DNA from: Bacillales bacterium UBA3789
Lineage (GTDB): Bacteria; Bacillota_I; Bacilli_A; RF39; UBA660
DNA: 64,000 bases
Assembly (NCBI GenBank): GCA_002369415.1
Contig: DFEZ01000011.1
Location: forward strand, 145,410-209,409
Direction of reading: 5' to 3'
Part shown: positions 11,186 through 64,000 of the stretch, piece after piece
Layout: each line of letters opens with the position of its first letter
How positions within the stretch are numbered: position 1 is the first letter of the stretch
The notes under the pieces: model-generated
Databases searched by the model: none
Seen by the model: only the letters and a program-made list of their open reading frames with translations
What the model was told of the DNA's origin: nothing
Position numbers and translations under genes: made by a program

Positions 11186-11242
11186 TCTGATCACCCTTTT
11201 TCAAATACGTTCATATTATAACATATTTAATTATATTAATCT

Positions 11243-14459: not shown

Positions 14460-14558
14460 CTTATCACCAACTTTACGTACATTATAAATATATCATAAAA
14501 TAAGATAATTCTTAGTAAAAAGAGTTAAATTTAACGTAAAATAAAAGGATAGTTTTCA

Positions 14559-16611: not shown

Positions 16612-16677
16612 ATCTTATCCTCCTATTATTAATTCTATCATAAAAACAATAAAAAAAGAACTAAAAGTTCTTTCTTA

Positions 16678-18220: not shown

Positions 18221-18279
18221 TATGCATCACCTTATAATTATTATATCAAAAAATAAAAATAATAGATAATCTATTATTT

Positions 18280-18798: not shown

Positions 18799-18809
18799 TT
18801 TTCCTCCTA

Positions 18810-20426: not shown

Positions 20427-20469
20427 TACCCTTCACTTCTTTCTTAAACATTATATCATGTTCTTTTAA

Positions 20470-20493
20470 AATAAAAAAGAGCATTGCTCTTTA
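20470..20493 (-). terminator. Intrinsic terminator (AAAGAGCA-t-TGCTCTTT)
   Basis: Hairpin plus T-run downstream of the HD-domain gene. Confidence 0.55.
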
Positions 20494-20994: not shown

Positions 20995-21079
20995 TCTCCT
21001 TACATAAATATATTAACATATTATTATGTAAATATGTTGTATAATCGTTGTAAATTTACTATATTTGACAATAAAAGAA

Positions 21080-22372
21080 TTAGACTAATTCACTTAGAAT
21101 TTTATCTAATTCTTCTTCATCTTCTTTACTTGTTTCTTCTATATCATTTTCTTTATTAAACCATGCTGGAATGTTTTCTGGTTTTGTAGTTTTTTCTTCT
21201 TTTGGTTTAATCATTTTCTTCATCTTTTTATGTTCTTTTTCAGTTACTCTCATTGCTTCTTCTACTGTTTCTATATTTAATCTTTTCCACTGACCAGCAA
21301 TTGTTTCTACATAACTTTTCTTCAATTGTTCATTATTTACCTTTAATACATAACTTATAAGAACATTTACAACTCCAGGATTTAGTTTTTGATCTATTAA
21401 TAGACTTTCTATTAATTTCTTATCTCTATCAGTTGGTTCTGCTCCTTTATATTTAGCTTTTAATAACTGATATGGAGTCATATTTTCAAAAGCATAGACC
21501 ATTTTAGCCCATTTAGAGTTATCTCCTTCTGGTTTCTTTAAAAATTCTGGCTGTTTATTATAAATAAGTGTTGGTAGATTACCACTATTTTCAAATTTAT
21601 AATAGTCTCTACAATTCTTTCTTAAAATTGTTTTATCAATTAATCCTTTTTCATTAATAGAGTCTCTTACTAGACCTTGCATATCTAATGTATTTAGATT
21701 ATATATAAAACTTAAATTATTTATTAATTCTTTTGTATCTTCATTAAAACATTTATCATTTAATCTACTACTTGGAATACTACTAATAATCATATTAAAG
21801 TCTATTCCTCTATTAATAATTATATTATTAGAGTCTTTCTTAGTTATATCTTCATTCATTTCTAATAGAGTTCCTTGTACTGATGAGAACACTTCATCAA
21901 ATGATGCAGTTATATCTTCATAATCTTTAAAATTATATCTTGGAACTTTAAAATAATTTAGTACTTTTTCATATTCTTTTTTACCTAAATTATTATATAA
22001 AACTATATTTAGAATTGGATGATTAAAGAATTCATCTGCAGTAATAGGTGAATATATTAAATAGACAAATTGATTAACATTATCTTTCTTAACATATGTT
22101 TTTAATAGTCCTATTGCTTCTAGTTTTTCTCTTGCAATTACTATATCTTCTAGTCTTAATTGCATAGTAGACATTAAATGATGATGAGTTAGATCTTCTG
22201 ACATTATTTCTTGCTTATCTAAGTCATCTAATAAAGTATTATAAAGTGCTACTGCACTATATCCAATTATAGGTTGATATAACATTGTTATTAGTTTTTT
22301 ATCTTTATCTGTAATAATAGTTTTATTTATTACTGTATAAGTATCTGCAGGTAAAATAGATAAGTTTTTCAT
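21080..22372 (-). CDS. dnaB: Replication initiation and membrane attachment protein (Bacillus DnaB family, DnaD-like domain)
   Basis: N-terminus LITMLYQPIIGYSAVALYNTLLDDL matches Bacillus DnaB IITQLYQPLIGPVAFSLYMTLWGEL; acidic C-terminus; 430 aa. Confidence 0.55.
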   Translation of the reverse strand: MKNLSILPADTYTVINKTIITDKDKKLITMLYQPIIGYSAVALYNTLLDDLDKQEIMSEDLTHHHLMSTMQLRLEDIVIAREKLEAIGLLKTYVKKDNVNQFVYLIYSPITADEFFNHPILNIVLYNNLGKKEYEKVLNYFKVPRYNFKDYEDITASFDEVFSSVQGTLLEMNEDITKKDSNNIIINRGIDFNMIISSIPSSRLNDKCFNEDTKELINNLSFIYNLNTLDMQGLVRDSINEKGLIDKTILRKNCRDYYKFENSGNLPTLIYNKQPEFLKKPEGDNSKWAKMVYAFENMTPYQLLKAKYKGAEPTDRDKKLIESLLIDQKLNPGVVNVLISYVLKVNNEQLKKSYVETIAGQWKRLNIETVEEAMRVTEKEHKKMKKMIKPKEEKTTKPENIPAWFNKENDIEETSKEDEEELDKILSELV

Positions 22373-22407
22373 GTTATCACCACCTATATATTTATACTAC
22401 AATAAAT

Positions 22408-22436
22408 AGAAAAAAAAAGAAAGATAATCTTTCTTT
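22408..22436 (-). terminator. Intrinsic terminator after pilD (AGAAAGAT-a-ATCTTTCT)
   Basis: Hairpin plus 9-nt T-run on the minus strand. Confidence 0.55.
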
Positions 22437-23202
22437 AAAATGATTTAATAATTTCTATTATTATTGGTAGATTTAATCTAGTAAAATATATGAACATAAA
22501 GCTAATAAGTAAGAATGGTCCAAATGGTACTAGATTCTCTTTCTTTAGTGCTAATATTATTAAAGATATAGGTAAAGCTAAGATACTTGCGATAAAGATT
22601 ACTACTAATCCTAATAATGGGTTAATTAATAATCCAAAGACAAACATTAATTTAATGTCTCCTCCACCTAAACTTTCTTTTCTAAATATTAGGTTTCCTA
22701 ATAACATTATTCCAAACATAAATCCAAATAATATTAGACCATATCCTAAACTAATAAGAGCACTTTTAATTCCATAATTTATGATATTTATTATAGTAAA
22801 GTATATTGAGAAAAATATTAATACTTCATCTGGAATAATAAAATAAGATATATCTGAAATAGAAATAATTATTAGCATTGCAACTATTCCTAAAGCAATT
22901 AATAATTCAAATGAGAATCCAAATACATAAAAACTTAAGGCAAATAGTATTCCTGTAAATATTTCCATATATGTTGATAATGAATTTATCTCTGAATGGC
23001 AATATCTACATTTACCTCTTAGGAATAAATATGATAATACTGGTATCATATCTAGAAGAGATAATTCATGATTACAGGTGTCACAGTGACTTCTTGTTTT
23101 TATAAAATCTTCATGATTAGGTAATCTTAGGCCAATTACAGTAAAGAATGATCCAAAAACAGTTCCTAAAATAAAGAAGATAATTAAGTATACTACGTTC
23201 AT
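22435..23202 (-). CDS. pilD: Type IV prepilin peptidase (A24 family; PilD/ComC-like)
   Basis: N-terminal TM, cytoplasmic tetra-Cys zinc motif (HCDTCNHEL ... GKCRYCHSEI), polytopic C-terminal peptidase domain with conserved Asp (ISDISYFIIPDE ... GGGDIKL). Confidence 0.85.
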   Translation of the reverse strand: MNVVYLIIFFILGTVFGSFFTVIGLRLPNHEDFIKTRSHCDTCNHELSLLDMIPVLSYLFLRGKCRYCHSEINSLSTYMEIFTGILFALSFYVFGFSFELLIALGIVAMLIIISISDISYFIIPDEVLIFFSIYFTIINIINYGIKSALISLGYGLILFGFMFGIMLLGNLIFRKESLGGGDIKLMFVFGLLINPLLGLVVIFIASILALPISLIILALKKENLVPFGPFLLISFMFIYFTRLNLPIIIEIIKSF

Positions 23203-23212
23203 AATTACCTCC

Positions 23213-24655
23213 CTATTTAATTTGACTATAAATTGAGAACATTGGTTGAATTATTGATACTAAGATAATACCAACTACTACTGCTAAGAAACAGATAAGT
23301 ATAGGTTCAACTAAACTTTTCATCTGATCAATAACGTTTTTATGTAACATTTGGAAGTGTTGAGCAACTTTTTCCATCATCGTTCCTAATTGACCAGTTG
23401 TTTCACCGGTAACAATCATCTCATATGCAACAATTGGAATTGCCCATTCTCCTTTAAATGCAGATGATATTGAATCTCCTCTACCTAAGTTCTCTAATGT
23501 TCCTGAAATAATTCTCTTATATACTTCATTTGATGTAATCTTAGATAAGATTTCCATTGAGTCTGTAATAAATACTCCATGGTTTAATAATGATGCAAAA
23601 GTCTTTGTGAAGTTTGCTATTTCATTATAAATAATAATATCTTTAATTACTGGTAAATGCATCAAGATTATTTGGACTGTTTCTCTAAATTTTTGAGATT
23701 TAGTAAATGCTTCATAGAAAACAAATACTATTGCAAATATAACTATTAATAGCACCCACCATTTTTGTGATATAAATTCACTAGTTGAAACAATTATTTT
23801 TGTTAACATAGGTAGTTCTGCACCATTATCTTCAAACATTGATGTGAACTGAGGAACTAAGTAAGTTAACATGAATATTAAAACTCCAAATGCTATTGTT
23901 AATACGACAATCGGATAAGTCATTGCTGATTTCATTTGTTTTCTTGTTTGATCCATTGATGTATAATACTCAGCCATATCATCTAAGATAGAAGGTAAAT
24001 CTCCTGTCATTTCAGCAGTCTTTACCATATTAACTAATAATTTTGGATAAACTTTATCTTGCATTAACATTGCATCTGATAAGTCTTCTCCTTTTAATAA
24101 TTGATATACCAATTGATTAAAGCTTTTCTTTAATCCTGGCTTTGTAGTTTGTTTTGCTAAGATTCTAACTGAATCTACTAGAGGAATACCTGATTTAATA
24201 TATGTAGATAATTGAGTTAGTGTAAATGATAGGTCACTTGCACCGATTCTACCATTTCCTCCGATATCTACATCGAATTTTCCTCTTTCTTTTATCTCTA
24301 AAACTTCATAATCTTGTCCTAATAAGAAGTTTCTAACATCATTTTCTGATTCTGCTTCAAAAGTACCACTTTCTTTTTTACCTACACCATTAATAATTGT
24401 ATATCTATAGTCATGAACTGGTCTTTTTACTTTTTCATTTGAATCAAGTGCTGTTGGTTGAGCTGCTAAAGTTACACTTGTATCTTGTGCCATACCATCA
24501 GCTGTACCAGAATTACTTCCTGGCATTATATTATTATAGATATTTTGTGGAGGTTGAGTTGCTTGTACTGGTTGAGTTGCTTGAACTTGTTGTTGTACTG
24601 CTGGCTGTTGTGTTGCTGTTAATTGTTGTGCATTTGCATTTGATTTACCAAACAT
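23213..24655 (-). CDS. pilC: Type IV pilus / competence pseudopilus platform protein (GspF family; PilC/ComGB-like) with Gln/Thr/Pro-rich N-terminal extension
   Basis: Two GspF cytoplasmic repeats (LSFTLTQLSTYIKSGIPLVDSV ... ; FTKTFASLLNHGVFITDSMEIL ...) and three TM segments, ending ...PMFSIYSQIK. The N-terminal 70 aa are low complexity (QQPAVQQQVQATQPVQATQPPQ). Confidence 0.8.
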   Translation of the reverse strand: MFGKSNANAQQLTATQQPAVQQQVQATQPVQATQPPQNIYNNIMPGSNSGTADGMAQDTSVTLAAQPTALDSNEKVKRPVHDYRYTIINGVGKKESGTFEAESENDVRNFLLGQDYEVLEIKERGKFDVDIGGNGRIGASDLSFTLTQLSTYIKSGIPLVDSVRILAKQTTKPGLKKSFNQLVYQLLKGEDLSDAMLMQDKVYPKLLVNMVKTAEMTGDLPSILDDMAEYYTSMDQTRKQMKSAMTYPIVVLTIAFGVLIFMLTYLVPQFTSMFEDNGAELPMLTKIIVSTSEFISQKWWVLLIVIFAIVFVFYEAFTKSQKFRETVQIILMHLPVIKDIIIYNEIANFTKTFASLLNHGVFITDSMEILSKITSNEVYKRIISGTLENLGRGDSISSAFKGEWAIPIVAYEMIVTGETTGQLGTMMEKVAQHFQMLHKNVIDQMKSLVEPILICFLAVVVGIILVSIIQPMFSIYSQIK

Positions 24656-46334: not shown

Positions 46335-46362
46335 TAAAAAAAGAGAACTTAACGTTCTCTTT
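46335..46362 (-). terminator. Intrinsic terminator after the 46361 gene (AGAGAAC-ttaac-GTTCTCT)
   Basis: Hairpin plus T-run; closes the giant-pilin-1 / 46361 transcription unit. Confidence 0.5.
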
Positions 46363-47098
46363 AAATTCTTTCTAAGCCACTATCTAAATAAAAATCTTCT
46401 CCAGGTATTTTAAATGCAATTACAAGGTTACCACCTTCACTATAAAATAGTATTACATCATTATAGTTATTTTGTAATTCATATTCTTTATTTTCATCTT
46501 TATTTAATCTTTCTGTTGCATCTTTAATTGTTTTAGCAATTTCTTCATCTTTTACTTGTTCAATTTCTCTTATTTCTTCTTGAGTTAATAATCTCTTTTC
46601 TTTTTTATCATAAGTAAATGCTTCATAACTCAATGATTTTCTTTCTTCTGTACAATAATCTGTTTGTTTTCTATGTACTCCAATTGAAATTATGAAATCA
46701 TTCTCAAATGGAGCAAATCTTACTTCATTATATAATCTGTAGTTATATTTACTTCTTGCTTTATCACAAGTACTATCATTCATATCTGATTTCTTTGCTT
46801 CTTCAAATAATCTTAATGTTTCTTTATTAACTCTTTCTAGTTCTTTATTTAATACTTTATAATCATATTTTATTTTTATTAAATCATAATAATCATATAC
46901 TGGTCCTTGACAATCTTCAAGTGAATTCTTTTTACATACTTTTAATTTATTAGAATTGTCATAATCCCAGAAATTTTTATTTTCTACTTCTTGTTCTTTT
47001 GATGTAAATTTATTAAAACCAAATACACCTAATATGATTAATAATATTAATACAACTACTGAAATAATTATTTTATTTTTATTTTTATTCTTTTTCAT
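46361..47098 (-). CDS. Hypothetical membrane-anchored protein, immediately downstream of giant pilin-like gene 1
   Basis: MKKNKNKNKIIISVVVLILLIILGVFGF signal-anchor; only 38 nt from the pilin-1 stop, so likely co-transcribed. Confidence 0.45.
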   Translation of the reverse strand: MKKNKNKNKIIISVVVLILLIILGVFGFNKFTSKEQEVENKNFWDYDNSNKLKVCKKNSLEDCQGPVYDYYDLIKIKYDYKVLNKELERVNKETLRLFEEAKKSDMNDSTCDKARSKYNYRLYNEVRFAPFENDFIISIGVHRKQTDYCTEERKSLSYEAFTYDKKEKRLLTQEEIREIEQVKDEEIAKTIKDATERLNKDENKEYELQNNYNDVILFYSEGGNLVIAFKIPGEDFYLDSGLERI

Positions 47099-47136: not shown

Positions 47137-50100
47137 CTATCCTGGGCATGTAGAGTATGGGCAGACTGTATTATATCCACCTATACAGTTACGATAGATA
47201 TGTACCCAGTGACAATTACCATTCCAACATTGGTATGGAGTTTCTACATATCCATATAAATCTCCATAATACCAACTTGTATCTTCTGAAATAACATATA
47301 CTCTATCGTTACGTCCACCTAATGAGTGATAGATTGTACCAACGAAAGTACTATCATCTTTATAAGAACTATTATAAATTGCAGTCATTCCGGCACGACA
47401 CGCTGTTTTCCAAACACATCCTTTTGGATTATTTTCACCACAACATGATTGTGTAGTATTATATCCACATTTTGCTACGCTTCTATTTCCTGCTTTATCT
47501 ATTACAAGCATATAATTATAATATGTTGTTCCTCCACATGCTGTATTCAAAGCAGATGAACTTGACCATCCATTTGACCAAGCTATATCATTAGGATTTG
47601 AATAGTCTACTGTAGTTGCCATATAGTATCTAGCAGAAATACCACTGTATTCTACATTATTTATCTTATCATGTGATCCTGTATCACTCATTGATGATCC
47701 ACTTATACCACAAAGTGGAGTTGGAGGTTCAGGGTCCACAGGTGTATTACATGTTTTTGCAGCACATGATTCTTCGTTACCAGCTTTATCTTTTATTGTA
47801 AATGCTGGAACAGCTGTTGTCTTTCGTGCTGTATTTAGTGCAATTTCACCTTTAGCGGAATCGTCTGCAATACCACTTTCATTATCTGTTCCACCATATG
47901 TAAGTTTTAAATTTTTATTATTAGTCCATGAAGTAATACTACAATTTGCATATGAACATTTAGGAAGCACTGCATCTATTTTAACAACTTGATTATTTGG
48001 ACACGCATCTGAAACGTTACCAGCAACATCTTTAAATGTATAAGCTACTCCTGCTCCATTTGGTCCTCCATTAGATATATTTATACTTGTAGTTGTTGTA
48101 TATTTATGTGATTTTGTCTTTGATGCACAAGTACTTCCACCATCTTTATCACTACATTTACTTGTAACTACTACATAGTCACCTTTTTTCAACCATGTAT
48201 TTGATGGTGTTGTTGGTTGACCACTTGAATTATATTCAGCTTTTGTTGTTGAACATGTTGGTTTTGTGTAATCTATTTTTACTATTCTATTTGCAGGACA
48301 TTTTGTTGTATTGTCAGCATTATCTTTTACTGTTCCACCTTCATCTTTACCAGCTGCTCCTGCAGTTGTTGTTACTATTTCAAAATTATATAGATTAGAT
48401 AATGTTTTATATTCTTCATGACATCCTGAAACTACACTTTTTTGTGCCTTATCATTACATGTTGCTGTTACAGTTGCTGTTTCACCTTTCATTAACCAAC
48501 CATCTTCTGTGTTGTTATGTGTTTTTCTATCTCCTCCAGAATAAGTAACTTTTGTTGTACAATCAGGAGCTTTATGGTCTATTTTTATATCTTTAGTTGC
48601 TGCACAATTCACTGTATTTCCAGCATTATCAGTGAACGATCCACCTTTTCCTGCTCCTGCTGCTCCACCATTACTTATGTTAATATCATCTTTATATTCA
48701 TGTGAAAATACTTTTGAACTACACTCACTTATGCTTAATATTCCTTCTTTTTTTACATCATCACATGTTGCTGTTACAACAACCGTTTCACCTTTTCCTG
48801 CCCAGTCTGATTTAGAGAATTCTCCATCTCCTTCTGCTCCTTTTTCGTGATTCATTGTTCTTTCAACAGTACATTTTGGAGCTACTGTATCTAACCAAAT
48901 CTCTGGCTTGTGTGCAATATATCCTGAACAGTTATTGGCATTATCACACAATGCAAATTCAATCTTATCTTTTCCTTGATAATCCTTTGAGAATACGAAG
49001 GCTGTTTGATCTTTATCTCCATAATATTCGTTTTTATTTGTATCACTTGCTTCATTAACTAATAGTTTACCATTTAAATCATATACATTGTATTTTCCTT
49101 TATAGAAACCTGATACATTATCGTTTTTAAAGTTATTTGCGATATATGCTTTTACATATTTATTTGTCCATGTAGCTGGACTATAATCATTTCCGTTTTG
49201 AGCTCTTATATCATTCTTTTGAAGATATGAAGTATTTACTGTTAATCTTCTAACATTTGGTGCTGTCTTATCTACATATGCATTGATGTTTACGACTGTT
49301 TTATTTCCAGCTCTATCATATACTGTTAATTTACCCCATCTAACTCCATCTGTAGGTAATCCAATATCTATTGAATATGTATTATCATCAATGAATTTGT
49401 TTGTTGGAGTTTGAAAATCACCTAAGTCACTATCATCATTTGCATCTGATACTTTTTTCTCATCTGCAGTATATGTAGTTTTAGATTTTACTCCAGAAAC
49501 ATTTGTTTCCCATGTCCATGAAGCTAATTCGATATTATCTTTTGTAGTAACATGAATGACTGGTCCGTCTGGAGAATTACTTCCATTAAACCATTTGTTT
49601 TCATCTGCACCAGCATCAATTTTATATGTATTAAAATCTATTGTTCCTGAATTGTTTCTTCTATTACCATTTGCATCTAGTCCACCAACTGTCTTAGATG
49701 CAACTACTGGTTCATTGTCTCCTGCTTTTGCTTTAACTGTTACATTTACTTCTGGTTCTAGAATATCAACGTTTACTCTAACTAAACATCTATAGTCACC
49801 AGTTTCATCTCTTCTGTGGTTTGCATCTCCCGCATCATTCCAATCATCTGGAAGACTATCTTTTACTGGTCCATCATTTCCTGCATTATCCTTAATATAA
49901 ATCCAGGCATATTTTGCACCATATAGATATGGTTGAGTTCCATTAACTGTTTGATTATTTGGCCATGTTTGAGTAAATATTTCTCTTAAACATTGACTTC
50001 CATCACCATCTGAACATTTAATTTGAATACTCTTTCCTCTTCCGGCTTTTTCATATGCAGCACGGTTATACCATTCTCCTGGTTTTGCTTGAGTAAATTT

Positions 50101-50895
50101 AAGTAAGTTAGCACTATTATCTTCACAATATGGTGGTATTGTATCTTGATAATCTGCATAACTTCCTGTACCTGTTTCAGCATGTTCATCTAAACTTCCA
50201 CCTGTTGTGTTTCTTGCTAATACTGTTAATCTTACTGATGTTATACCTGTTAAATCAATATATTTTTTAATCTTTTCACTTACGTTTATTTCTGTTCTAT
50301 TTTCTCCATTTAAGACTCCAGAATTATACACTTCTTGGTAATCTGTTTGAGCATCACGTTTTGTAGAAATAACATATGTATAAGATGTAATTTCTGTATT
50401 CTTATTTGTTGCTGATCCTAATATTGTAAATGAGAAACTTGCAACACCAACGTCATTAGAATCAGAGAAAATAATTCCGTTCTTTAATACTGGTGGATCT
50501 ATTGCCTCTTCTATTGGAGGAACTTCACTACCACAATATACATGAGGCTTATAATCATAGGAATTCTTTCCTGTTTTAATTACCTCAATAAATGAATTCT
50601 CCATACAATTTTTACCATCATCACGAATAATATCTTCTGTTAGATATTTTGTATCTTTTAATTCTTGAAATGGTATTTTTATTGACTCTCCAATTCCTTT
50701 TGGAGCCAATTCTTTATTTGCTTGTAAGTAGCTTTTTGCAGCTAAAGTTGCTGATTTTACTTCTGTTATATTTTTTTCATTTTTAGATTTATCAATTACT
50801 CTAGATACTGCAAATATAGTTACTGATGCTAGTATTCCTAAAATAACTACTACTGCTAATAATTCTACTAATGAGAAACCCTTTCTATTATTCAT
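47137..50895 (-). CDS. Giant modular type IV pilin-like protein 1 (prepilin-type N-terminal cleavage/methylation domain + pilin head + Ig-like D-x-A-G-N modules + 4 Cys-bracketed tandem repeats + Cys-rich C-terminal domain)
   Basis: MNNRKG|FSLVELLAVVVILGILASVTIFAV class III signal (G-1, F+1, E+5); pilin head with Cys pair CMENSF...YCG; 1252 aa; own promoter TTGTAT-17-TATAAT at 50918-50946. Confidence 0.8.
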   Translation of the reverse strand: MNNRKGFSLVELLAVVVILGILASVTIFAVSRVIDKSKNEKNITEVKSATLAAKSYLQANKELAPKGIGESIKIPFQELKDTKYLTEDIIRDDGKNCMENSFIEVIKTGKNSYDYKPHVYCGSEVPPIEEAIDPPVLKNGIIFSDSNDVGVASFSFTILGSATNKNTEITSYTYVISTKRDAQTDYQEVYNSGVLNGENRTEINVSEKIKKYIDLTGITSVRLTVLARNTTGGSLDEHAETGTGSYADYQDTIPPYCEDNSANLLKFTQAKPGEWYNRAAYEKAGRGKSIQIKCSDGDGSQCLREIFTQTWPNNQTVNGTQPYLYGAKYAWIYIKDNAGNDGPVKDSLPDDWNDAGDANHRRDETGDYRCLVRVNVDILEPEVNVTVKAKAGDNEPVVASKTVGGLDANGNRRNNSGTIDFNTYKIDAGADENKWFNGSNSPDGPVIHVTTKDNIELASWTWETNVSGVKSKTTYTADEKKVSDANDDSDLGDFQTPTNKFIDDNTYSIDIGLPTDGVRWGKLTVYDRAGNKTVVNINAYVDKTAPNVRRLTVNTSYLQKNDIRAQNGNDYSPATWTNKYVKAYIANNFKNDNVSGFYKGKYNVYDLNGKLLVNEASDTNKNEYYGDKDQTAFVFSKDYQGKDKIEFALCDNANNCSGYIAHKPEIWLDTVAPKCTVERTMNHEKGAEGDGEFSKSDWAGKGETVVVTATCDDVKKEGILSISECSSKVFSHEYKDDINISNGGAAGAGKGGSFTDNAGNTVNCAATKDIKIDHKAPDCTTKVTYSGGDRKTHNNTEDGWLMKGETATVTATCNDKAQKSVVSGCHEEYKTLSNLYNFEIVTTTAGAAGKDEGGTVKDNADNTTKCPANRIVKIDYTKPTCSTTKAEYNSSGQPTTPSNTWLKKGDYVVVTSKCSDKDGGSTCASKTKSHKYTTTTSINISNGGPNGAGVAYTFKDVAGNVSDACPNNQVVKIDAVLPKCSYANCSITSWTNNKNLKLTYGGTDNESGIADDSAKGEIALNTARKTTAVPAFTIKDKAGNEESCAAKTCNTPVDPEPPTPLCGISGSSMSDTGSHDKINNVEYSGISARYYMATTVDYSNPNDIAWSNGWSSSSALNTACGGTTYYNYMLVIDKAGNRSVAKCGYNTTQSCCGENNPKGCVWKTACRAGMTAIYNSSYKDDSTFVGTIYHSLGGRNDRVYVISEDTSWYYGDLYGYVETPYQCWNGNCHWVHIYRNCIGGYNTVCPYSTCPG

Positions 50896-50917
50896 ATCAT
50901 CACCTACTATACAAATA

Positions 50918-50946
50918 ATTATAAAATATTTTTAATTTTTATACAA
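50918..50946 (-). promoter_or_regulatory. Candidate promoter for giant pilin-like gene 1 (TTGTAT-17 nt-TATAAT)
   Basis: Minus strand reads TTGTATaaaaattaaaaatatttTATAAT, 23 nt upstream of the ATG; RBS AGGTGA. Confidence 0.5.
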
Positions 50947-50985
50947 TATAAAAAACTAAATTTTGGCAATTTAGTTTTTTTTAAT
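50945..50985 (-). terminator. Intrinsic terminator after giant pilin-like gene 2
   Basis: AAAACTAAATT-ttggca-AATTTAGTTTT 11-bp stem followed by T-run. Confidence 0.6.
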
Positions 50986-50986
50986 T

Positions 50987-53900
50987 CTATCCTGGGCAAG
51001 TGGCATATGGACAGGCACTATTATTTCCTCCTACACAGTTTGGCCATATATATGCATATGGGGCATTTCCTGCAGGATACCATGATATATTACCACAAGG
51101 TGAATAAATATATAATTTCTTAGAAGCAGAACCTTCTATTAAATATAATCTATCACTACATGATGAGTCTTTTTGATGATATACAGTACCGGCATATGTT
51201 GTTTTTGCTTCACTTGTATAGATGAATGTTCTTCCGTTACGACACGCTGTCTTCCAATTACATCCCCATGGATTAGATTCACCACAACAAGAACCTGTTG
51301 TATATGAACCAGTACATACAAATGATTCTGAGTTACCTGCTTTATCAATTACTTTAATGTGACCATAGTAAGTAGTACCACAACTTGTTCCTAATGCATT
51401 TGATGATTTCCATGCATTTGATGAAGTTGATTGCTTACTACTTGAAGTACTTGATATGTATACGACAGATGATACTCCACTATGTGAATCACTCTTAGAA
51501 TTTACATTAATTTTATTTCCTGACACTGAACATGATCCAGTTGGTTTTGTTTTATCAACTAAAACATTACAACTTGGAGTACATTTTCTTTCGTTACCAG
51601 CAATATCTTTAATTATATATTCATCAAGAGTAAATGATTTAGTTGTTTCAGTAATTGTTCTATCTTTTAGTGTAGTTGCACAACCACTTCCATTTGTATC
51701 TTGGCAACCATATTTAACTGTTCTATTTTGATTTGTCCATGATGTATTATTACAATTTTCTGTATAACAACTTGGTGCTACTGCATCTATTTTTACTGTC
51801 TTATAACCACACATTTTTGTATTTCCAGCTGTATCTGATACCGATTTAGCAACGCCATCTCCTCCAGCTCCAGCTGTTGTTGTATTAATTAGTTTATCTG
51901 TTTGATAAAGTTTGCTGAATGTTTGAGTTGCACATTCACTTCCACCTTGATCAGAACATGTTGCTGTTACTCTTGCAGTTTCTCCTTTACTTAACCAGCC
52001 AGATTCAGTATTATCATGAGTTTTCTTATCTCCACCTTCATATGTGATTGATAAGTTACATACTGGATCAGTTTGATCTATTTTAACTGTTTTATTTGCA
52101 TCACAATTAGTTACATTATCTGCGGCATCTTTTACTGATCCGCCGTTTCCAACATCTATTGCTCCAGCATTATTTATATTTGTTTCTGTGCTATATGTTT
52201 TTGAAAATGGTTGAGTAACACAACCAGAATTAATATCTTTAGTCTCACTACATTTTGCTGTTACTACCGCTTGTTCTCCTTTACTTAACCAACCAGTTGA
52301 TGATAGTTTTCCATCACCTTTGCTGCTATCTGTTACTTCATATTTAATTGAAGTTGTACAAATTGGTGCAGTGTGATCTATTTTTACTGTTTGATTTGCT
52401 GAACAAGGTGCTTCATTTCCAGCATTATCTTTTACTGTTCCACCTTCATTATTACCAGCTGCTCCTGCAGTTGTTGTACTAATTGAATCTTTATATTCAT
52501 ATGAAATCTTTTCATCAACACAACCACTACCTGATTTACCAGCATTTTGATCTGAACATGTACCTGTAACTGTAATTGTTTCTCCTATTCCAGCCCATTT
52601 TGCATCAGATAGATATCCATCTACTTCATCAATAGTCTTATTAACATTTTGACTTACTGAACATACTGGATCTATTGTATCTAACCAAATTTCTTTTACT
52701 TCACTATAAGTTGAACAGTTATTTGCTTTATCACATATTCTATATCTTACACTGTTCTTTCCTTGATAGTTTGAATCAAATGTAAATTCAGTATCTCCTT
52801 TTTTAGTAGCATTATCATTTAGAGAAATTCCATGTCCTCTAACTTCAAATTCTGCTTTGTCAAATCCAGATATTGTATCTTTATGATAGTCTTTATTAAC
52901 GTATGTTTTTACATATTTATTAGTCCATGTTTTAGATTGATAATCTTTATCTTCATCTGCTCCAATATTATTCTTTTTAAGTGTTTTAGTAATTACAGTT
53001 GCTGGTGTATCAGGTCTTGTTCTATCAATATTTGCATAGATGTTAATAACTGTTTTATTACCAGCTCTATCATATACTGTTAATTTACCATATCTTATTC
53101 CTTCACCTTTTAATTGAACAACAAATTCAGATGAAGTTAATCCATTATCATTAATACTTAAGTCTTGTTCTGGGAATGATTCTTCTTTACTATCTGGGTT
53201 TCCTACTTTTATATCTTTAATTATATTTTTATTTTTAACATAATCAGATTTTGATACTCCAGTTTCATTTGTTTCCCATGTATATTTATATAGATGAAGA
53301 TTATCATTTACTTTGATCTTGTATGTTACTCCATCTTTATGTTCTTCATTAAACCAGATCCAGTTTTCATCTCTTGGAGATTTATTTAAATTATATGAAT
53401 TTGCTGTAATAGATGCTATATCATCATACTCATTATAATTTTCATCTGCTCCTCCAGCAGAAACTGTTTTAATAATATTATCATTTGTAATTGCTGTTAC
53501 TTCTACTCTTGGAGATAAGATGTCTACATTAACTCTTACACGGCAGCTTGCTTTTGTTTCTGCATTTGTAAGAGATGAGTTATTTGCATTATCTTTTACT
53601 TCTATATATGCATATTCTGCTCCCCAATAGTAATGTTTTTCTCCTCTATAAATATCATTATTAGGGAATGATTTAGTAAATGTAGTTCTTAAGCAACCAC
53701 TACCTTCTCCATCCCCACATGTTGCTGTTATCTTTCTATATCCGCCTTTAAGGCTTTCAATTGTATGTTTATTTGTCCATTCATTTGGTTTAGCTTCATT
53801 ATCTATTTTTATACATTTAGGAGATATTGTATCTCCATAGTCTCTTTCACTATCTATACCAGTTTGTTTTGTTATTGATGTTATACCACCTTGTTCATTT

Positions 53901-54601
53901 ATAACTGTAATATTAACTCTTACTGATGTTACTGAAACTATATCAACATAATCTACTAATTTATAAGATTTAATAATTTTAGTATTGTGATTTCCTGGAA
54001 CAGATCCACTATTATAAACTTCTTGATATGAAGTATTATCCTCTAACATTGTAGATATTGTGAAACTATAACTATCTATTTCTAATGGATTGTTTTTATC
54101 TTCTGATCCTTCCATTGTCATTGTAAAACTTGCTGATGAAACATCATCGGCATTTGAAAAATCAAATTTTGTTATTACTGGTGAAATTGCTTCTATCTCT
54201 GCTGGTGCTTTTTCATCACCACAATATAGATATGCAGTATAAGAATAGTCAGTTCCTTCTGATTTATAAACTCTAACAAAGCTTTCTTTCATACAAGTTT
54301 CTCCTCTAGAGTTTTTTAAATCACTAGTAATATACTTTGTATCTTTTAATTCTTTAGCAGTAATTATTTTATGTTCACCAATTGCTTTAGGTGCTTGATC
54401 TTTATTGTCTTGTAAATATTGTTTAGCTGCTACTAGCAATGTATCTTTTGCTTCAATATTTGTTTCATTTCTTGCTTTTTCAATATACTTACTTACAGCA
54501 GTTATTCCTACAACTGATAAAATCCCTAATATTACTATTACGGCTAATAATTCAACTAATGTGAACGCTTTACTACTTTTAGTTTTTTGTTCTTTACCCA
54601 T
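50987..54601 (-). CDS. Giant modular type IV pilin-like protein 2 (paralog of protein 1, same architecture)
   Basis: MGKEQKTKSSKA|FTLVELLAVIVILGILSVVGITAV prepilin N-terminus (E+5); head Cys pair CMKESF...YCG; 1204 aa; ends ...CPYATCPG like protein 1's ...CPYSTCPG. Confidence 0.8.
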   Translation of the reverse strand: MGKEQKTKSSKAFTLVELLAVIVILGILSVVGITAVSKYIEKARNETNIEAKDTLLVAAKQYLQDNKDQAPKAIGEHKIITAKELKDTKYITSDLKNSRGETCMKESFVRVYKSEGTDYSYTAYLYCGDEKAPAEIEAISPVITKFDFSNADDVSSASFTMTMEGSEDKNNPLEIDSYSFTISTMLEDNTSYQEVYNSGSVPGNHNTKIIKSYKLVDYVDIVSVTSVRVNITVINEQGGITSITKQTGIDSERDYGDTISPKCIKIDNEAKPNEWTNKHTIESLKGGYRKITATCGDGEGSGCLRTTFTKSFPNNDIYRGEKHYYWGAEYAYIEVKDNANNSSLTNAETKASCRVRVNVDILSPRVEVTAITNDNIIKTVSAGGADENYNEYDDIASITANSYNLNKSPRDENWIWFNEEHKDGVTYKIKVNDNLHLYKYTWETNETGVSKSDYVKNKNIIKDIKVGNPDSKEESFPEQDLSINDNGLTSSEFVVQLKGEGIRYGKLTVYDRAGNKTVINIYANIDRTRPDTPATVITKTLKKNNIGADEDKDYQSKTWTNKYVKTYVNKDYHKDTISGFDKAEFEVRGHGISLNDNATKKGDTEFTFDSNYQGKNSVRYRICDKANNCSTYSEVKEIWLDTIDPVCSVSQNVNKTIDEVDGYLSDAKWAGIGETITVTGTCSDQNAGKSGSGCVDEKISYEYKDSISTTTAGAAGNNEGGTVKDNAGNEAPCSANQTVKIDHTAPICTTSIKYEVTDSSKGDGKLSSTGWLSKGEQAVVTAKCSETKDINSGCVTQPFSKTYSTETNINNAGAIDVGNGGSVKDAADNVTNCDANKTVKIDQTDPVCNLSITYEGGDKKTHDNTESGWLSKGETARVTATCSDQGGSECATQTFSKLYQTDKLINTTTAGAGGDGVAKSVSDTAGNTKMCGYKTVKIDAVAPSCYTENCNNTSWTNQNRTVKYGCQDTNGSGCATTLKDRTITETTKSFTLDEYIIKDIAGNERKCTPSCNVLVDKTKPTGSCSVSGNKINVNSKSDSHSGVSSVVYISSTSSSKQSTSSNAWKSSNALGTSCGTTYYGHIKVIDKAGNSESFVCTGSYTTGSCCGESNPWGCNWKTACRNGRTFIYTSEAKTTYAGTVYHQKDSSCSDRLYLIEGSASKKLYIYSPCGNISWYPAGNAPYAYIWPNCVGGNNSACPYATCPG

Positions 54602-54628: not shown

Positions 54629-54660
54629 ATTATATCAAAAACAGAGTATATAAATCAATA
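54629..54660 (-). promoter_or_regulatory. Candidate promoter for giant pilin-like gene 2 (TTGATT-18 nt-TGaTATAAT, extended -10)
   Basis: Minus strand reads TTGATTtatatactctgttttTGATATAAT, about 28 nt upstream of the ATG; RBS AGGGTGA. Confidence 0.5.
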
Positions 54661-54672: not shown

Positions 54673-54882
54673 CTATTCAGCTTCTTTTTTTTCTACTTCT
54701 ACTTTTCCCTTATAGTTACCGCATTTTGGGCAAACTCTATGAGGTTTGATCATTTCTCCACATGATGGACATTTTGTCATTCCTGGAACTTCCATAGCGT
54801 TATGACTTCTTCTTAATCTCTTTCTTGTCTTTGAAACTTTATGGAAAGGAACTGCAAACATTTGAATATCTAATTTCATCAT
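54673..54882 (-). CDS. rpmF: 50S ribosomal protein L32 with unusual 9-aa N-terminal extension
   Basis: [27 protein letters not shown]...CPSCGE...CPKCG zinc ribbon. Strong AAGGAG RBS 9 nt upstream of the first ATG; the internal Met8 has no RBS. Confidence 0.85.
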
Positions 54883-62212: not shown

Positions 62213-62899
62213 TTATTCTACTAATAATCCCATAACTAATTGATATTTATGATTAGGATCTCCATTAGAACAAGTTTGAAGTATTATTACATGAGATTCT
62301 TCTTCTAACTCAATATCACTATGTATATTTGATTTATTCTTTAATTTATTTAAATGTTCTTTATAAGTAAGTCCATTAAAACTCTTTAGATTTACATAAT
62401 CAAAATCTTGTGTTTCTATATAACTAGAAAAGATTTCATATTTATATTTTTTATCATTTGTATAAAGATAGATATATTTATTATTTTCATAAAATTCTTG
62501 ATTATTATAATTAGATAGTTTATTAAATGATAGAGTTATTTCCATATCACTGTGACCATATACTAGTAGTTTTTTATCATTTAATAAGTCATTTCTATAA
62601 TCTAAGAATGTAGCACCATAGATGTCTTCTTCTTTTTTTATATTATGATTTAAATAATAATCATTATCAGATGTTTGTAGTAATATTTCTTTAAATAAAT
62701 TAGGTATTTCTATTACACCTACTATATCATCATTGTTGTATTCTTTTTTTAATTTATCTACTATCTTAGTATCTTCCTTAACTTCTGGAATATTTATTTC
62801 CGGTTTATAATCATATTTTCTATCTACTGATTTAATACCTATAAAGAATACTGAAATGATTAGAATTAATAGTAAGAGTACTCTTAATACTTTCTTCAT
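62213..62899 (-). CDS. srtB: Class B sortase
   Basis: N-terminal TM, YGH His motif (LLVYGHSDM), KYKYEIFSSY beta-strand pattern, LQTC catalytic Cys motif; co-linear with S. aureus SrtB. Confidence 0.65.
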   Translation of the reverse strand: MKKVLRVLLLLILIISVFFIGIKSVDRKYDYKPEINIPEVKEDTKIVDKLKKEYNNDDIVGVIEIPNLFKEILLQTSDNDYYLNHNIKKEEDIYGATFLDYRNDLLNDKKLLVYGHSDMEITLSFNKLSNYNNQEFYENNKYIYLYTNDKKYKYEIFSSYIETQDFDYVNLKSFNGLTYKEHLNKLKNKSNIHSDIELEEESHVIILQTCSNGDPNHKYQLVMGLLVE

Positions 62900-62971
62900 G
62901 TAACCACTCCATTTACGAACATATTATAACATATATAAATAAAAAAAACCAAGCAATGCTTGGCTTTTTTA

Positions 62972-64000
62972 TTAATCCTCTAATTTCTTTCTAAATATTA
63001 CTGCAATTAAACTTGATACGAATAATACGAATAATTCAATTAAACTTCCTTTATTATTATATCCAATACCTGTATTAGGTGGAGTTATTTCTGGAACAGG
63101 TCCATTATATTTATTAGTAATATCAAATCCATTGATTATAGTTTCATAATTAGCTACTTTAATTTCATTAATTGAATAAACTATTTCAATTCCTTGATCT
63201 CTATATTTATATAATGGATTTCCATCATAATCTTCATAGAATGTATAAACCCATCCATTTTCAGCAGTTAATTCTGCAGTTCCGATTTCTTCACCATCAG
63301 CGTATAAGATTATAGTTATTAAAGCAGGTCTTGATGAATATTTATTGTCTTCATCATCCCAAGTTTTAGTTACAGTTATTTGTCCATCATTATCTGGATC
63401 ATCATCGTCTTCATTTATTAGCTCTGGAATATGAGTATTTTCTAATTCACCATCGAATTCATATGTGTCTCCGTCAGTGTATTCTTCACCCTCATGAGTA
63501 TTATTAACTGGAGTAACTTCTCCTGGAGTATAGTAAGGTACTGCCTCTTCAGAAATTGTATATTCAACTGGTTGTCCATTCATGTATTTTGGTAAATTAG
63601 TGAATGTATGTGTCCATTTGTTGAAGTCTTCAGCTTCTTCAATAGTAATTACAGTTGGCTCTCCATAAGCTTCTCCGTTTGCTAATAATTGAACTGTGAT
63701 TGATTCTGGTCTCTTACCATCTCTATCGTAATCATCATTCCAAATCTTAGAAATTGTATAATTAATAACTTCTGGAGTATGTGTATTAACGATATCTAAT
63801 GATTTAAGATCATCTGTTCTTTCATATTTTTCACTGTCGCAAGTTTCTGCAACTGTGTAATCTATTACTTCACCATTTGCATATTTTGGAACTTCTGGGA
63901 ATGTTACTGTCCATTGATTACCTTCTGATAATACGTCAGTAAATTCTGTTGGTTCTCCATTTGCTAGTAAAGTTACTGTAATATTTTCAGGTCTCATACC
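62972..64000 (-). CDS. Cell-wall-anchored adhesin with Cna B-type repeats and C-terminal PPNTG sorting signal (5' end beyond window)
   Basis: At least 3 Cna-B repeats (RPESITVQLLANGE...NKWTHTF..LPKY.NGQPVEYTISE). C-terminus is PPNTG + hydrophobic helix + RKKLED. Confidence 0.7.
   Translation of the reverse strand, partial: GMRPENITVTLLANGEPTEFTDVLSEGNQWTVTFPEVPKYANGEVIDYTVAETCDSEKYERTDDLKSLDIVNTHTPEVINYTISKIWNDDYDRDGKRPESITVQLLANGEAYGEPTVITIEEAEDFNKWTHTFTNLPKYMNGQPVEYTISEEAVPYYTPGEVTPVNNTHEGEEYTDGDTYEFDGELENTHIPELINEDDDDPDNDGQITVTKTWDDEDNKYSSRPALITIILYADGEEIGTAELTAENGWVYTFYEDYDGNPLYKYRDQGIEIVYSINEIKVANYETIINGFDITNKYNGPVPEITPPNTGIGYNNKGSLIELFVLFVSSLIAVIFRKKLED

What the first reader, a model, noticed from the sequence alone, without database searches (positions are those of the whole stretch)
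47716..48900. Four Cys-bracketed tandem repeats of about 100 aa inside giant pilin 1, with the same array in pilin 2 at 51557-52687
Pilin 1 residues about 666-1060 and pilin 2 residues about 639-1015 each comprise four consecutive repeats. Each repeat follows the pattern (I/V)D-x-(T/K)-x-P-x-C ... W(L/A)xKGE-x-(V/A)-VTAxC-(S/N/D)D ... (S/E)C ... Gly-rich loop (GGAAGAGKGG or AGAAGNNEGG) ... (K/T)D-x-A-(G/D)-N ... C ... VKID. Examples are IDHKAPDCTTKVTYSGGDRKTHNNTEDGWLMKGETATVTATCNDK and IDQTDPVCNLSITYEGGDKKTHDNTESGWLSKGETARVTATCSDQ. The regularly spaced Cys residues suggest one or two disulfides per module. The D-x-A-G-N and x-D-x-T-x-P boundary motifs recall bacterial Ig-like/HYR-type adhesin domains. 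The repeat family does not match any named domain I can recognise by eye.
Basis: seen in the sequence. Interest (0 to 1): 0.65.

Follow-up and report, generated by a model that had tools for sequence, protein, structure and literature searches.

The report
Disulfide-stapled Ig-like stalk in giant pilins
Two neighbouring 1,200-residue type IV pilin genes of an uncultured gut or rumen bacterium each carry a run of small antibody-like beta-sandwich modules, each probably locked by two disulfide bonds, and these most likely form a stiff stalk that holds a cysteine-rich end domain away from the pilus or cell.

Summary
The repeats are real and lie at the stated coordinates. Each pilin has three clear modules of about 100 aa (pilin 1 residues 668-972, pilin 2 residues 640-937). 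A fourth unit of 77-80 aa is a shortened relative without the Gly-rich loop, seen only by profile-profile comparison. Another relative lies outside the stated range (pilin 1 residues 247-375).

Four Cys are almost invariant across 797 distinct copies. The two middle Cys are lost together 76 times and singly at most twice. This argues for an inner disulfide (Cys2-Cys3) and an outer "bracket" disulfide (Cys1-Cys4).

No Pfam, NCBIfam or PDB sequence model reaches threshold. AlphaFold models are confident and all-beta. The multi-module model matches tandem Ig-like extender arrays of giant adhesins (GhpA, SiiE, MpIBP). A related two-Cys subfamily links weakly to HYR and Big_13.

The domain occurs in 407 cluster representatives, mostly pilins, with 1-11 copies per protein. 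Copy number does not vary between strains, and DNA identity between copies is only 60-75%.

Best reading: a new, doubly disulfide-bonded subfamily of bacterial Ig-like domains that forms a rigid stalk in modular type IV pilins. This is a new variant of a known kind and of moderate interest.

The parts
47137..50895 (-). Giant modular type IV pilin 1 (1252 aa). Layout: class III signal and pilin module (residues ~1-135), beta modules M0-M3, repeats R1-R3, M7, M8, then a C-terminal Cys-rich domain.
   Evidence: ORF. N_methyl scores 30.2 bits against a cut-off of 21.2. TIGR02532 scores 27.1 against 16.3. The sequence G|FSLVE has Glu at position 5. 115 homologues were found.
50987..54601 (-). Giant modular type IV pilin 2 (1204 aa), a paralogue with the same module order. 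Its leader ends in Ala (KA|FTLVE).
   Evidence: 42% identical to pilin 1 over the full length.
48583..48894 (-). Pilin 1 repeat R1 (A4, residues 668-771), with four Cys at 675, 711, 725 and 764.
48277..48582 (-). Pilin 1 repeat R2 (A5, residues 772-873), with four Cys at 779, 813, 825 and 866. This is the unit modelled alone.
   Evidence: Translation checked. AlphaFold pLDDT 87.6, seven strands..
47980..48276 (-). Pilin 1 repeat R3 (A6, residues 874-972), with four Cys at 881, 914, 923 and 965.
47740..47979 (-). Pilin 1 shortened fourth unit M7 (A7, residues 973-1052). It has no Gly-rich hairpin. The inner Cys pair is replaced by Gly/Ile, and an extra Cys sits near each end (C-x4-C ... C-x4-C).
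   Evidence: hhalign against the repeat profile gives 94.9-98.2%. Alignment.
52382..52684 (-). Pilin 2 repeat B4 (residues 640-740).
52082..52381 (-). Pilin 2 repeat B5 (residues 741-840).
51791..52081 (-). Pilin 2 repeat B6 (residues 841-937).
51560..51790 (-). Pilin 2 shortened fourth unit B7 (residues 938-1014). It keeps the inner Cys pair and has an extra Cys near each end.
   Evidence: Translation checked..
49771..50157 (-). The pilin 2 equivalent is at 53528-53845.
   Evidence: hhalign 79.3% (close set) to 96.9% (family). HMM score 12.8 bits, above all 500 shuffles.
47449..47739 (-). Pilin 1 module M8 (residues 1053-1149), a beta module ending in D-K-A-G-N. The pilin 2 equivalent (51293-51559) gives a sub-threshold Big_3_2 hit.
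   Evidence: pLDDT is about 90 in the 593-residue model.
47140..47448 (-). Pilin 1 C-terminal Cys-rich domain (residues 1150-1252, 11 Cys, ends ...CPYSTCPG), the presumed distal end of the stalk. The pilin 2 equivalent is at 50990-51292.
   Evidence: In the 26 proteins of my set that have it, every significant hit lies at the extreme C terminus. AlphaFold confidence is low, pLDDT 33-60. No Pfam hit.
46361..47098 (-). 245-aa protein with one N-terminal membrane helix and four Cys, directly downstream of pilin 1. It is probably co-transcribed and is conserved in the same position in relatives.
   Evidence: ORF. Same position in L019, L018 and L020. A terminator-like hairpin at 46340-46362 lies after it, and a promoter-like site at 54629-54658 lies before pilin 2.
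22435..24655 (-). Prepilin peptidase (22435-23202) and a PilC/GspF-type platform protein (23213-24655), the only type IV filament machinery found in the window.
   Evidence: A24_N_bact 1.7e-29, Peptidase_A24 2.5e-13 and T2SSF 2e-50.

Best explanation
The repeats are a previously unmodelled subfamily of bacterial Ig-like beta-sandwich domains, distantly related to the HYR/Big_13 group. They build a rod-like stalk in two paralogous modular type IV pilins.

Shown here:
- Each protein starts with a class III signal peptide and a small pilin module.
- It continues through roughly nine to ten beta modules.
- It ends in a Cys-rich terminal domain.

Inferred:
- The prepilin peptidase encoded 24 kb away cleaves the leader.
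- The pilin module is inserted into a type IV filament. As proposed for other bulky modular pilins, this is most probably at the tip or only sparsely along the shaft.
- The chain of modules projects the terminal domain some 35-40 nm, assuming about 4 nm per Ig-like module.
- Each ~100-aa module is locked by two disulfides. The inner one (Cys2-Cys3) ties the end of strand 2 to the following loop. The outer 'bracket' (Cys1-Cys4) ties the start of the first strand to the turn before the last strand.
- The bracket encloses about 88 of 100 residues, so pulling force would bypass most of the fold. This would make the stalk nearly inextensible and protease-resistant in the gut.
- In effect this resembles the isopeptide-locked domains of sortase pili and the Ca2+-stiffened BIg rods of SiiE and MpIBP.

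Copy number (1-11 across the family) would set the reach on evolutionary rather than strain time scales.
For: Pilin identity:
- N_methyl and TIGR02532 score above their cut-offs and Glu5 is present.
- The N-terminal helix matches solved pilins.
- A prepilin peptidase and a T2SSF platform protein lie in the same window.

Repeats:
- establish the three clear repeats.

Disulfides:
- Four Cys are invariant in 111 of 113 copies.
- Patterns among 797 distinct copies are CCCC 473 and CxxC 76, against CxCC 1.
- M7 units gain an extra Cys near each end together (listing), which suggests the two ends are adjacent in space.
- The proteins have 36 and 38 Cys (even numbers, 2.9-3.2%). Most other ORFs in the window have 0-2%.

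Fold:
- Single repeat: pLDDT 87.6, pTM 0.79, seven strands.
- Residues 660-1252: pLDDT is about 90 across R1-R3, M7 and M8.
- Foldseek matches this model to tandem Ig-like extender arrays: GhpA 9flw at 2.4e-7, SiiE 2yn3 at 3.7e-7, MpIBP 4p99 at 1.3e-5, a LapA-type extender 6xi3 at 3e-4, plus SraP, cadherins and titin.

Association with pilins:
- 407 representatives match at E<=1e-3.
- 99 of the 139 new ones have a class III signal motif, and many of the rest are fragments.
- Copy number is 1-11.

The modular-pilin concept and proposed tip location come from PMC8179133.
Against: - No disulfide was observed. The tools return no model coordinates, so S-S distances could not be measured.
- The organism is an uncultured low-GC gut or rumen bacterium, presumably anaerobic. 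No thiol oxidase was identified.
- No GspE/PilB-type assembly ATPase was found in the window or within 10 kb of the pilin genes in 19 related loci. Filament assembly is therefore unproven.
- The single-repeat model has no significant PDB match (best E 2.1). The fold assignment rests on the multi-domain match, where TM-scores are low (0.2-0.35) because the rods bend differently.
- The strongly conserved Gly-rich hairpin (A-G-A-x-G-x-G-x-G-G, 83-96% conserved) is more than a passive spacer needs. It may mark a binding or junction function.
- Pilin 2 has Ala rather than Gly at position -1.
Confidence: 0.6

Rival explanations
1. Membrane-anchored surface adhesin. The pilin-type signal serves only as a cleavable membrane anchor. 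The proteins are never polymerised and stand on the cell surface as single ~40-nm stalks, held by the N-terminal hydrophobic helix.
For: - No assembly ATPase is near the genes in the window or in 19 related loci.
- The genes sit in a housekeeping neighbourhood (yceD-rpmF upstream, addBA downstream) that is conserved in relatives.
- An ectodomain of more than 1100 aa is very bulky for a filament subunit.
- A conserved co-transcribed membrane protein of 245 aa lies downstream and could be a partner.
Against: - Glu5 and the full N_methyl motif are conserved across the family. That is expected if polymerisation matters.
- A platform protein and a prepilin peptidase are encoded in the window.
- Bulky modular pilins such as S. 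sanguinis PilB are incorporated into filaments (PMC8179133).
Confidence: 0.2
2. The repeats themselves are the ligand-binding units, giving multivalent binding of a glycan or protein. The conserved Gly-rich hairpin and the disulfide-held loop would form the binding site, so the repeats are not a passive spacer.
For: - The hairpin A-G-A-x-G-x-G-x-G-G and the D-x-A-G-N turn are among the most conserved positions.
- Both are modelled at pLDDT ~96.
- The hairpin and the inner disulfide are both missing from the 76 CxxC-type copies listed.
Against: - The best structural matches are extender regions of adhesins, not their ligand-binding regions.
- D-x-A-G-N recurs in every module type of these proteins, and in SiiE BIg and ChiA1 FnIII. 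It is therefore a structural motif.
- Copy number is variable and the units are interchangeable, which is typical of spacers.
- A separate conserved terminal domain exists.
Confidence: 0.15
3. Periscope-type length switch. The array expands and contracts by recombination between near-identical repeats, so that strains vary the length of the stalk.
For: Copy number differs among distant family members, from 1 to 11. The half-repeat relationships between the two paralogues are mosaic.
Against: - DNA identity between copies is only 60-75%, and Tandem Repeats Finder detects no ~300-nt array.
- In four 90%-identity clusters, every member on an adequate contig has exactly the same length: 1252, 1204, 1235 or 1205 aa.
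- Orthologues down to 55% identity keep three repeats plus M7.
Confidence: 0.03

Closest known systems
Modular type IV pilins (Streptococcus sanguinis PilB with a vWA module and PilC with a lectin module; ETEC CofB); Raynaud et al. 2021, PMC8179133
   Same: A class III signal peptide and small pilin module are followed by non-pilin modules grafted on the C-terminal side. The presumed role is presenting a functional module on a type IV filament. The organisms are monoderm.
   Different: The proteins here are far larger (1204-1252 aa). The most extreme multi-domain case cited in that survey was an 860-residue protein. The graft here is a chain of roughly nine to ten beta modules plus a Cys-rich end domain, and none of these has a database signature. 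There are no functional data.
BIg/Ig-like extender regions of giant adhesins: SiiE (2yn3/2yn5), MpIBP RII (4p99), LapA-type extender (6xi3), GhpA (9flw)
   Same: Head-to-tail arrays of ~90-100-aa beta-sandwich modules forming a rod. These are the best Foldseek matches, at E 2e-7 to 3e-4. A D-x-A-G-N ... V-x-V-D-x-T motif is shared with SiiE at a weak sequence level.
   Different: - Those proteins are type I-secreted (SiiE, MpIBP) or otherwise non-pilin proteins of diderm bacteria.
- They are stiffened by Ca2+ at the domain junctions (my background knowledge of SiiE and MpIBP). Here two disulfides per module are inferred instead.
- Sequence identity is 12-15%.
- There are far fewer copies here.
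HYR domain (PF02494) and the neighbouring Pfam families Big_13 (PF19077), Big_3_2 (PF12245), DUF7743 (PF24893) and Big_9
   Same: - A module of ~80-100 aa with an Ig-like fold.
- It opens with D-x-x-x-P-x-C and closes with D-x-A-G-N-x-x-x-C. That the HYR consensus has the same bracket is my recollection, not a test.
- A two-Cys relative in homologue P0115 passes the HYR cut-off.
- Other relatives give sub-threshold Big_13, DUF7743, Big_9 and HYR hits.
   Different: - None of the window's repeats, nor 61 family copies, reaches any Pfam threshold. The only HYR hit is E=9 in one copy.
- The repeats have an extra inner disulfide, a long variable loop between strands 1 and 2, and a conserved Gly-rich hairpin.
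- The Pfam-recognisable Big_3_2/Big_13 hits in homologues fall on module M3. M3 is not detectably related to the repeat (hhalign 0.5-2.5%).
Isopeptide-locked CnaB/CnaA domains of sortase-assembled Gram-positive pili (e.g. Spy0128)
   Same: A covalent intradomain cross-link joins the first and last strands of each Ig-like module in a pilus protein. This is expected to shunt mechanical load. The comparison is functional and is my inference.
   Different: The chemistry differs (Lys-Asn/Asp isopeptide versus disulfide), as do the assembly route (sortase versus type IV machinery) and the domain family. The window also encodes a separate sortase and a Cna_B protein at 62213-63997.
Periscope proteins
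   Same: A stalk of tandem Ig-like repeats whose number sets how far a surface protein reaches.
   Different: Periscope arrays have near-identical DNA repeats and vary between strains. Here copies are 60-75% identical at DNA level, and length is fixed within 90% clusters.

Membership tests
Type IV pilin / type IV filament subunit | Class III signal peptide: a short polar leader, Gly at -1, a hydrophobic N-terminal helix and Glu at +5 | tested here: met
   Pilin 1: N_methyl scores 30.2 bits (cut-off 21.2) and TIGR02532 scores 27.1 (cut-off 16.3); sequence MNNRKG|FSLVE. Pilin 2: 23.5 and 21.7 bits; sequence ...SSKA|FTLVE, with Ala at -1, conserved in its orthologues.
Type IV pilin / type IV filament subunit | A prepilin peptidase and assembly machinery are present in the genome | tested here: inconclusive
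   A prepilin peptidase (A24) and a T2SSF platform protein are at 22435-24655. No GspE/PilB ATPase motif or domain was found in the window or in 19 related loci. The rest of the genome is not available.
Type IV pilin / type IV filament subunit | Polymerised into a filament | not testable with these tools
   This needs microscopy or biochemistry.
HYR domain (PF02494) | Pfam HMM score at or above the gathering threshold (21.7 bits) | tested here: not met
   None of 61 repeat copies reaches it; the best is E=9 in one copy. Neither whole pilin gives an HYR hit. A two-Cys relative in homologue P0115 (residues 709-783) scores 25.0 bits over profile positions 2-80 of 81.
HYR domain (PF02494) | Ig-like beta-sandwich of about 80 residues with one bracketing Cys pair | tested here: inconclusive
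   The fold is all-beta and Ig-like by the multi-domain Foldseek match. The window repeats have two Cys pairs and are ~100 aa. No solved HYR structure was matched.
Big_13 / Big_3_2 / DUF7743 / Big_9 (Pfam bacterial Ig-like families) | Pfam HMM score at or above the gathering threshold | tested here: not met
   The repeats give no hits. Two-Cys relatives score 13-23 bits against cut-offs of 23.6-27. In pilin 2 the only such hit is Big_3_2 at 15.7 bits on module B8.
Tandem Ig-like extender of giant adhesins (SiiE/MpIBP type) | Head-to-tail array of Ig-like sandwiches with structural similarity to solved extenders | tested here: met
   Foldseek on the 593-residue model: 9flw 2.4e-7, 2yn3 3.7e-7, 4p99 1.3e-5, 6xi3 3e-4, with probability 0.91-1.00.
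Tandem Ig-like extender of giant adhesins (SiiE/MpIBP type) | Ca2+ sites at the inter-domain junctions that rigidify the rod | not tested
   No coordinates or ion prediction were available. The invariant Asp in I-D-x-x-x-P and in D-x-A-G-N could serve this role, but that is speculation.
Periscope-type variable-length repeat array | Near-identical DNA repeats and copy-number variation between strains | tested here: not met
   DNA identity is 60-75%. No ~300-nt tandem array was detected. Lengths are identical within four 90% clusters.
Doubly disulfide-bonded domain (the claim made here) | Cys1-Cys4 and Cys2-Cys3 are bonded | tested here: inconclusive
   Co-loss statistics support the pairing: CxxC 76, CxCC 1, CCxC 0 among 797 copies. 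Paired gain of an extra Cys near each end in M7 also supports it. No coordinates and no chemistry were available.

The most novel reading that the evidence does not exclude
These proteins may define a distinct class of type IV filament subunit in uncultured, small-genome gut and rumen Bacilli. In this reading the pilin carries its own covalently locked, inextensible stalk of ~40 nm, built from a dedicated disulfide-clamped domain family found almost only in pilins. The stalk would present a Cys-rich terminal adhesin. The organisms would then need an extracytoplasmic disulfide-forming system despite an anaerobic, Firmicutes-type lifestyle, in which exported Cys is usually avoided. The disulfide clamp would be the type IV pilus counterpart of the isopeptide locks of sortase pili.
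Probability: 0.3. Interest if true: 0.6.

Novelty: new variant of a known kind. Interest (0 to 1): 0.42.

Why it matters
Modular pilins are thought to explain how simple type IV filaments acquire many functions. Most extra modules still have no database signature.

This work defines one such module:
- It is a ~100-residue Ig-like domain with four invariant Cys.
- It is present in about 400 protein clusters, nearly all pilins of uncultured gut and rumen Bacilli.
- It occurs in 1-11 copies per protein.

The definition gives annotators a new domain family. It gives structural biologists a compact, confidently modelled target. It also yields a testable mechanical hypothesis: a disulfide clamp between the first strand and the last turn makes a pilus-borne stalk inextensible. 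Finally, it flags heavy use of disulfides by exported proteins of an anaerobic low-GC lineage, which runs against the usual avoidance of Cys in such proteins.

No new kind of system is implied. The pieces (pilin, Ig-like extender, covalent clamp) are all known ideas in a new combination.

Tried and rejected
- Self-BLAST of the whole proteins returned only the identity hit. I had to cut modules at the h-D-x-x-x-P boundaries first.
- The single-repeat model against PDB with Foldseek gave nothing significant (best E 2.1).
- A profile search of PDB sequences with the repeat alignment returned zero hits at E<=10. The two-Cys subfamily profile gave only ChiA1 FnIII at E 0.076 and SiiE at 0.64.
- Pfam and NCBIfam scans of 61 copies gave only noise.
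A full-length alignment worked.
- The idea that all modules belong to one family was rejected. M2 and M3 share only the terminal D-x-A-G-N motif with the repeats (hhalign 0.5-35%).
- The periscope or strain-variable length idea was rejected.
- A link to the TANB77 'conserved pilin' paper was checked and dismissed. Those pilins are 143-236 aa.
- A search for an assembly ATPase by Walker-A motif and by Pfam found none among the window ORFs tested.
Full report
**What is in the sequence**

The finding lies inside two adjacent minus-strand genes: 47137-50895 (pilin 1, 1252 aa) and 50987-54601 (pilin 2, 1204 aa). The two proteins are 42% identical over their full length.

Both begin with a class III (prepilin) signal.
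- Pfam N_methyl scores 30.2 and 23.5 bits against a cut-off of 21.2.
- NCBIfam TIGR02532 scores 27.1 and 21.7 bits against a cut-off of 16.3.
- Glu is at position +5 in both.
- The N-terminal helix aligns to solved pilins.
- Pilin 2 has Ala instead of Gly at -1, and this is conserved in its orthologues.

No other Pfam or NCBIfam model reaches threshold anywhere in either protein.

**Checking the repeats**

A boundary motif, hydrophobic-D-x-x-x-P, and a D-x-A-G-N motif recur about eight times in each protein. Cutting at the boundaries gives modules M1-M3, three ~100-aa units, an ~80-aa unit (M7), M8 and a C-terminal domain.

The three ~100-aa units are residues 668-771, 772-873 and 874-972 in pilin 1, and 640-740, 741-840 and 841-937 in pilin 2.
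- They match one another at BLASTP E 1e-10 to 4e-25, apart from one directional A6-B4 alignment at E 0.4.
- A profile made only from the pilin 2 units scores 82, 88 and 52 bits on the pilin 1 units.
- The maximum in 500 shuffles is 9.2 bits.

- It lacks the W-L-x-K-G-E segment and the Gly-rich loop.
- It is insignificant by BLASTP or simple HMM.
- Profile-profile comparison nevertheless aligns it end to end with the repeat. Probability is 94.9% using only close orthologues and 98.2% with the wider family.

M1 (pilin 1 residues 247-375) is a further distant relative, at 79-97% probability. M2 and M3 are not related to the repeat (0.5-35%).

The family also extends outside the stated range.

At DNA level the copies are only 60-75% identical, spaced 300-306 nt apart. 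Tandem Repeats Finder sees no array. The duplications are old.

**The cysteines**

In 113 distinct full-length copies from 115 homologues, 111 have exactly four Cys, at profile columns 8, 44, 56 and 95.

Among 797 distinct copies from the wider family:

| Pattern at the four columns | Copies |
|---|---|
| CCCC | 473 |
| CxxC | 76 |
| CxCC | 1 |
| CCxC | 0 |

- The two inner Cys are thus gained and lost as a pair.
- This is the signature expected if they bond to each other, which leaves Cys1 and Cys4 as the outer bracket.
- In all seven M7 orthologues examined, an extra Cys appears near each end together (C-x4-C ... C-x3-4-C; listing). This again suggests the two ends are neighbours in space.
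- The proteins have 36 and 38 Cys (2.9-3.2%). Most other ORFs in the window have 0-2%.

The bonds themselves are inferred. The tools do not return coordinates, so I could not measure distances.

**Fold**

AlphaFold2 on one repeat, with a 61-sequence alignment of copies, gives pLDDT 87.6, pTM 0.79 and seven beta strands. Only the strand 1-2 loop is uncertain. That model has no significant Foldseek match in the PDB (best E 2.1).

A model of pilin 1 residues 660-1252 has pLDDT of about 90 across R1-R3, M7 and M8, and 33-60 in the C-terminal domain. It matches tandem Ig-like arrays:
- GhpA fragment 9flw, E 2.4e-7.
- SiiE BIg domains 2yn3/2yn5, E 3.7e-7.
- MpIBP extender 4p99, E 1.3e-5.
- SraP, a LapA-type extender (6xi3), cadherins, PrgB Ig-like domains and titin.

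**Relation to named families**

- Pfam and NCBIfam scans of 61 copies give only noise. HYR appears once, at E=9.
- A PDB sequence search with the profile gives nothing.
- A two-Cys (CxxC) subfamily is homologous to the repeat (hhalign 97.9%).
- That subfamily gives sub-threshold hits to Big_13, DUF7743, Big_9, HYR and Cadherin_5.
- It also gives weak PDB hits to the ChiA1 FnIII domain (E 0.076) and SiiE.
- One such domain, in homologue P0115 at residues 709-783, passes the HYR cut-off over the whole model (25.0 bits against 21.7).
- Where homologues carry Pfam Big_3_2, Big_13 or DUF7743 hits, these fall on module M3, just before the repeats.

The repeat is thus a distant relative of the HYR/Big_13 neighbourhood, not a member by curated criteria. 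It is distinguished by the inner disulfide, a variable loop between strands 1 and 2, and a conserved Gly-rich hairpin (A-G-A-x-G-x-G-x-G-G, 83-96% conserved).

**Distribution**

- The full-length protein has 115 homologues, all from metagenomes or MAGs. A few are annotated as pilins or type II secretion proteins.
- An exhaustive profile search of 1.84 billion cluster representatives finds 407 proteins at E<=1e-3 and 186 at E<=1e-10.
- Of the 139 new ones listed, 99 have a class III signal motif. Most of the rest are fragments or have mis-called starts.
- Copies per protein range from 1 to 11. Most ~1060-aa relatives have one full and one short copy, and 1600-aa relatives have five or six.
- Named genomes are MAGs labelled uncultured Bacilli, Bacillales, Mollicutes or Erysipelotrichaceae, from sheep rumen and ileum, Hadza and other human gut samples.
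- Within four 90%-identity clusters, every member on a long enough contig has the same length. Orthologues at 55-78% identity keep the same module count. There is no strain-level expansion or contraction.

**Context**

The order yceD, rpmF (54673-54882), pilin 2, pilin 1, a 245-aa single-pass membrane protein, addB, addA is conserved in relatives.
- A promoter-like site with an extended -10 element lies at 54629-54658, before pilin 2.
- A terminator-like hairpin lies at 46340-46362, after the 245-aa gene. This suggests a three-gene unit.
- One related contig carries five giant paralogues.
- A prepilin peptidase (22435-23202) and a T2SSF platform protein (23213-24655) lie 24 kb away.
- No GspE/PilB ATPase was found in the window or near the genes in 19 loci.

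**Mechanism**

Shown: pilin-type N terminus, a chain of Ig-like modules, four invariant Cys with paired loss, and a conserved terminal Cys-rich domain. In the 26 proteins that have it, that domain's significant hits are always at the extreme C terminus.

Inferred:
- After leader cleavage, the pilin module enters a type IV filament. As argued for other bulky modular pilins (PMC8179133), this is probably at the tip.
- The modules form a stalk of roughly 35-40 nm that presents the terminal domain.
- The outer disulfide joins the start of strand 1 to the turn before the last strand, enclosing about 88 of 100 residues. Tensile force would then bypass the fold.
- The inner disulfide and the Gly-rich hairpin probably stiffen the same pole of the domain, next to the junction with the preceding module. 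This last point is a topological inference from the strand order, read as a fibronectin-type sandwich.

The arrangement works like the isopeptide locks of sortase pilins and the Ca2+-stiffened rods of SiiE and MpIBP.

Rivals:
- A non-polymerised membrane-anchored adhesin (0.2).
- Repeats that themselves bind ligand (0.15).
- A periscope-like length switch (0.03, essentially refuted).

**Verdict**

The feature is a new, disulfide-rich subfamily of Ig-like extender domains in unusually large modular type IV pilins. This is a new variant of known kinds, of moderate interest, with clear experiments available.

Noticed in passing
window 47140-47448 (pilin 1 residues 1150-1252) and 50990-51292 (pilin 2 residues 1104-1204): C-terminal ~100-aa domain with 11 Cys (12 in pilin 2). 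It starts S-C-C-G-E-x-N-P-x-G-C and ends C-P-Y-x-T-C-P-G. It has no Pfam hit and low AlphaFold confidence. It is present in 26 proteins of my set, with its significant hits always at the extreme C terminus. It is probably the functional tip of the stalk.
   Followed up: partly
window 46361-47098 (-): A 245-aa protein with an N-terminal membrane helix, four Cys and no family assignment, directly after pilin 1. It is conserved in that position in relatives (L018, L019, L020) and is followed by a terminator-like hairpin at 46340-46362. It may be a dedicated partner of the giant pilins.
   Followed up: partly
window 54569-54571 (pilin 2 residue 11) and orthologues in L002, L004, L005, L006, L013, L019: Pilin 2 and its orthologues have Ala instead of the canonical Gly at position -1 of the prepilin cleavage site (K-A|F-T-L-V-E). 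Pilin 1 keeps Gly.
   Followed up: no
window 22435-24655 (-): A prepilin peptidase (A24) and a PilC/GspF-type platform protein sit as an isolated pair between a DnaB_2-domain gene and tgt. No assembly ATPase is adjacent, and none was found among the window ORFs tested.
   Followed up: partly
window 48277-48582 compared with 51791-52684: Mosaic relationships between repeats of the two paralogues. The N-terminal half of pilin 1 R2 is closest to the third repeat of pilin 2 (67% identity). Its C-terminal half is closest to the first repeat of pilin 2 (53%). This hints at past exchange between repeats.
   Followed up: partly
L018 (JGI 3300035498 contig, 73 kb), 6620-23558: A related contig carries five giant paralogues (1080, 1185, 1190, 1006 and 1192 aa) in one cluster behind yceD-rpmF, interrupted by an HTH_38 gene. 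This is a local expansion of the family.
   Followed up: no
window 62213-63997 (-): A sortase and a protein with three Cna_B domains. The same organism therefore probably also makes sortase-anchored, isopeptide-type surface proteins alongside the disulfide-rich pilins.
   Followed up: no
window 4625-5314 (-): A 229-aa protein with an N-terminal membrane helix gives a weak, sub-threshold hit to the FimA4 pilin C-terminal domain (E 7.8e-4, 19.5 bits against a cut-off of 27).
   Followed up: no
window 48001-52000: The pilin genes are the most GC-rich stretch of the window (0.32-0.33 against 0.21-0.30 elsewhere). This fits their Gly/Ala/Cys/Thr-rich composition rather than an obvious foreign origin.
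   Followed up: no
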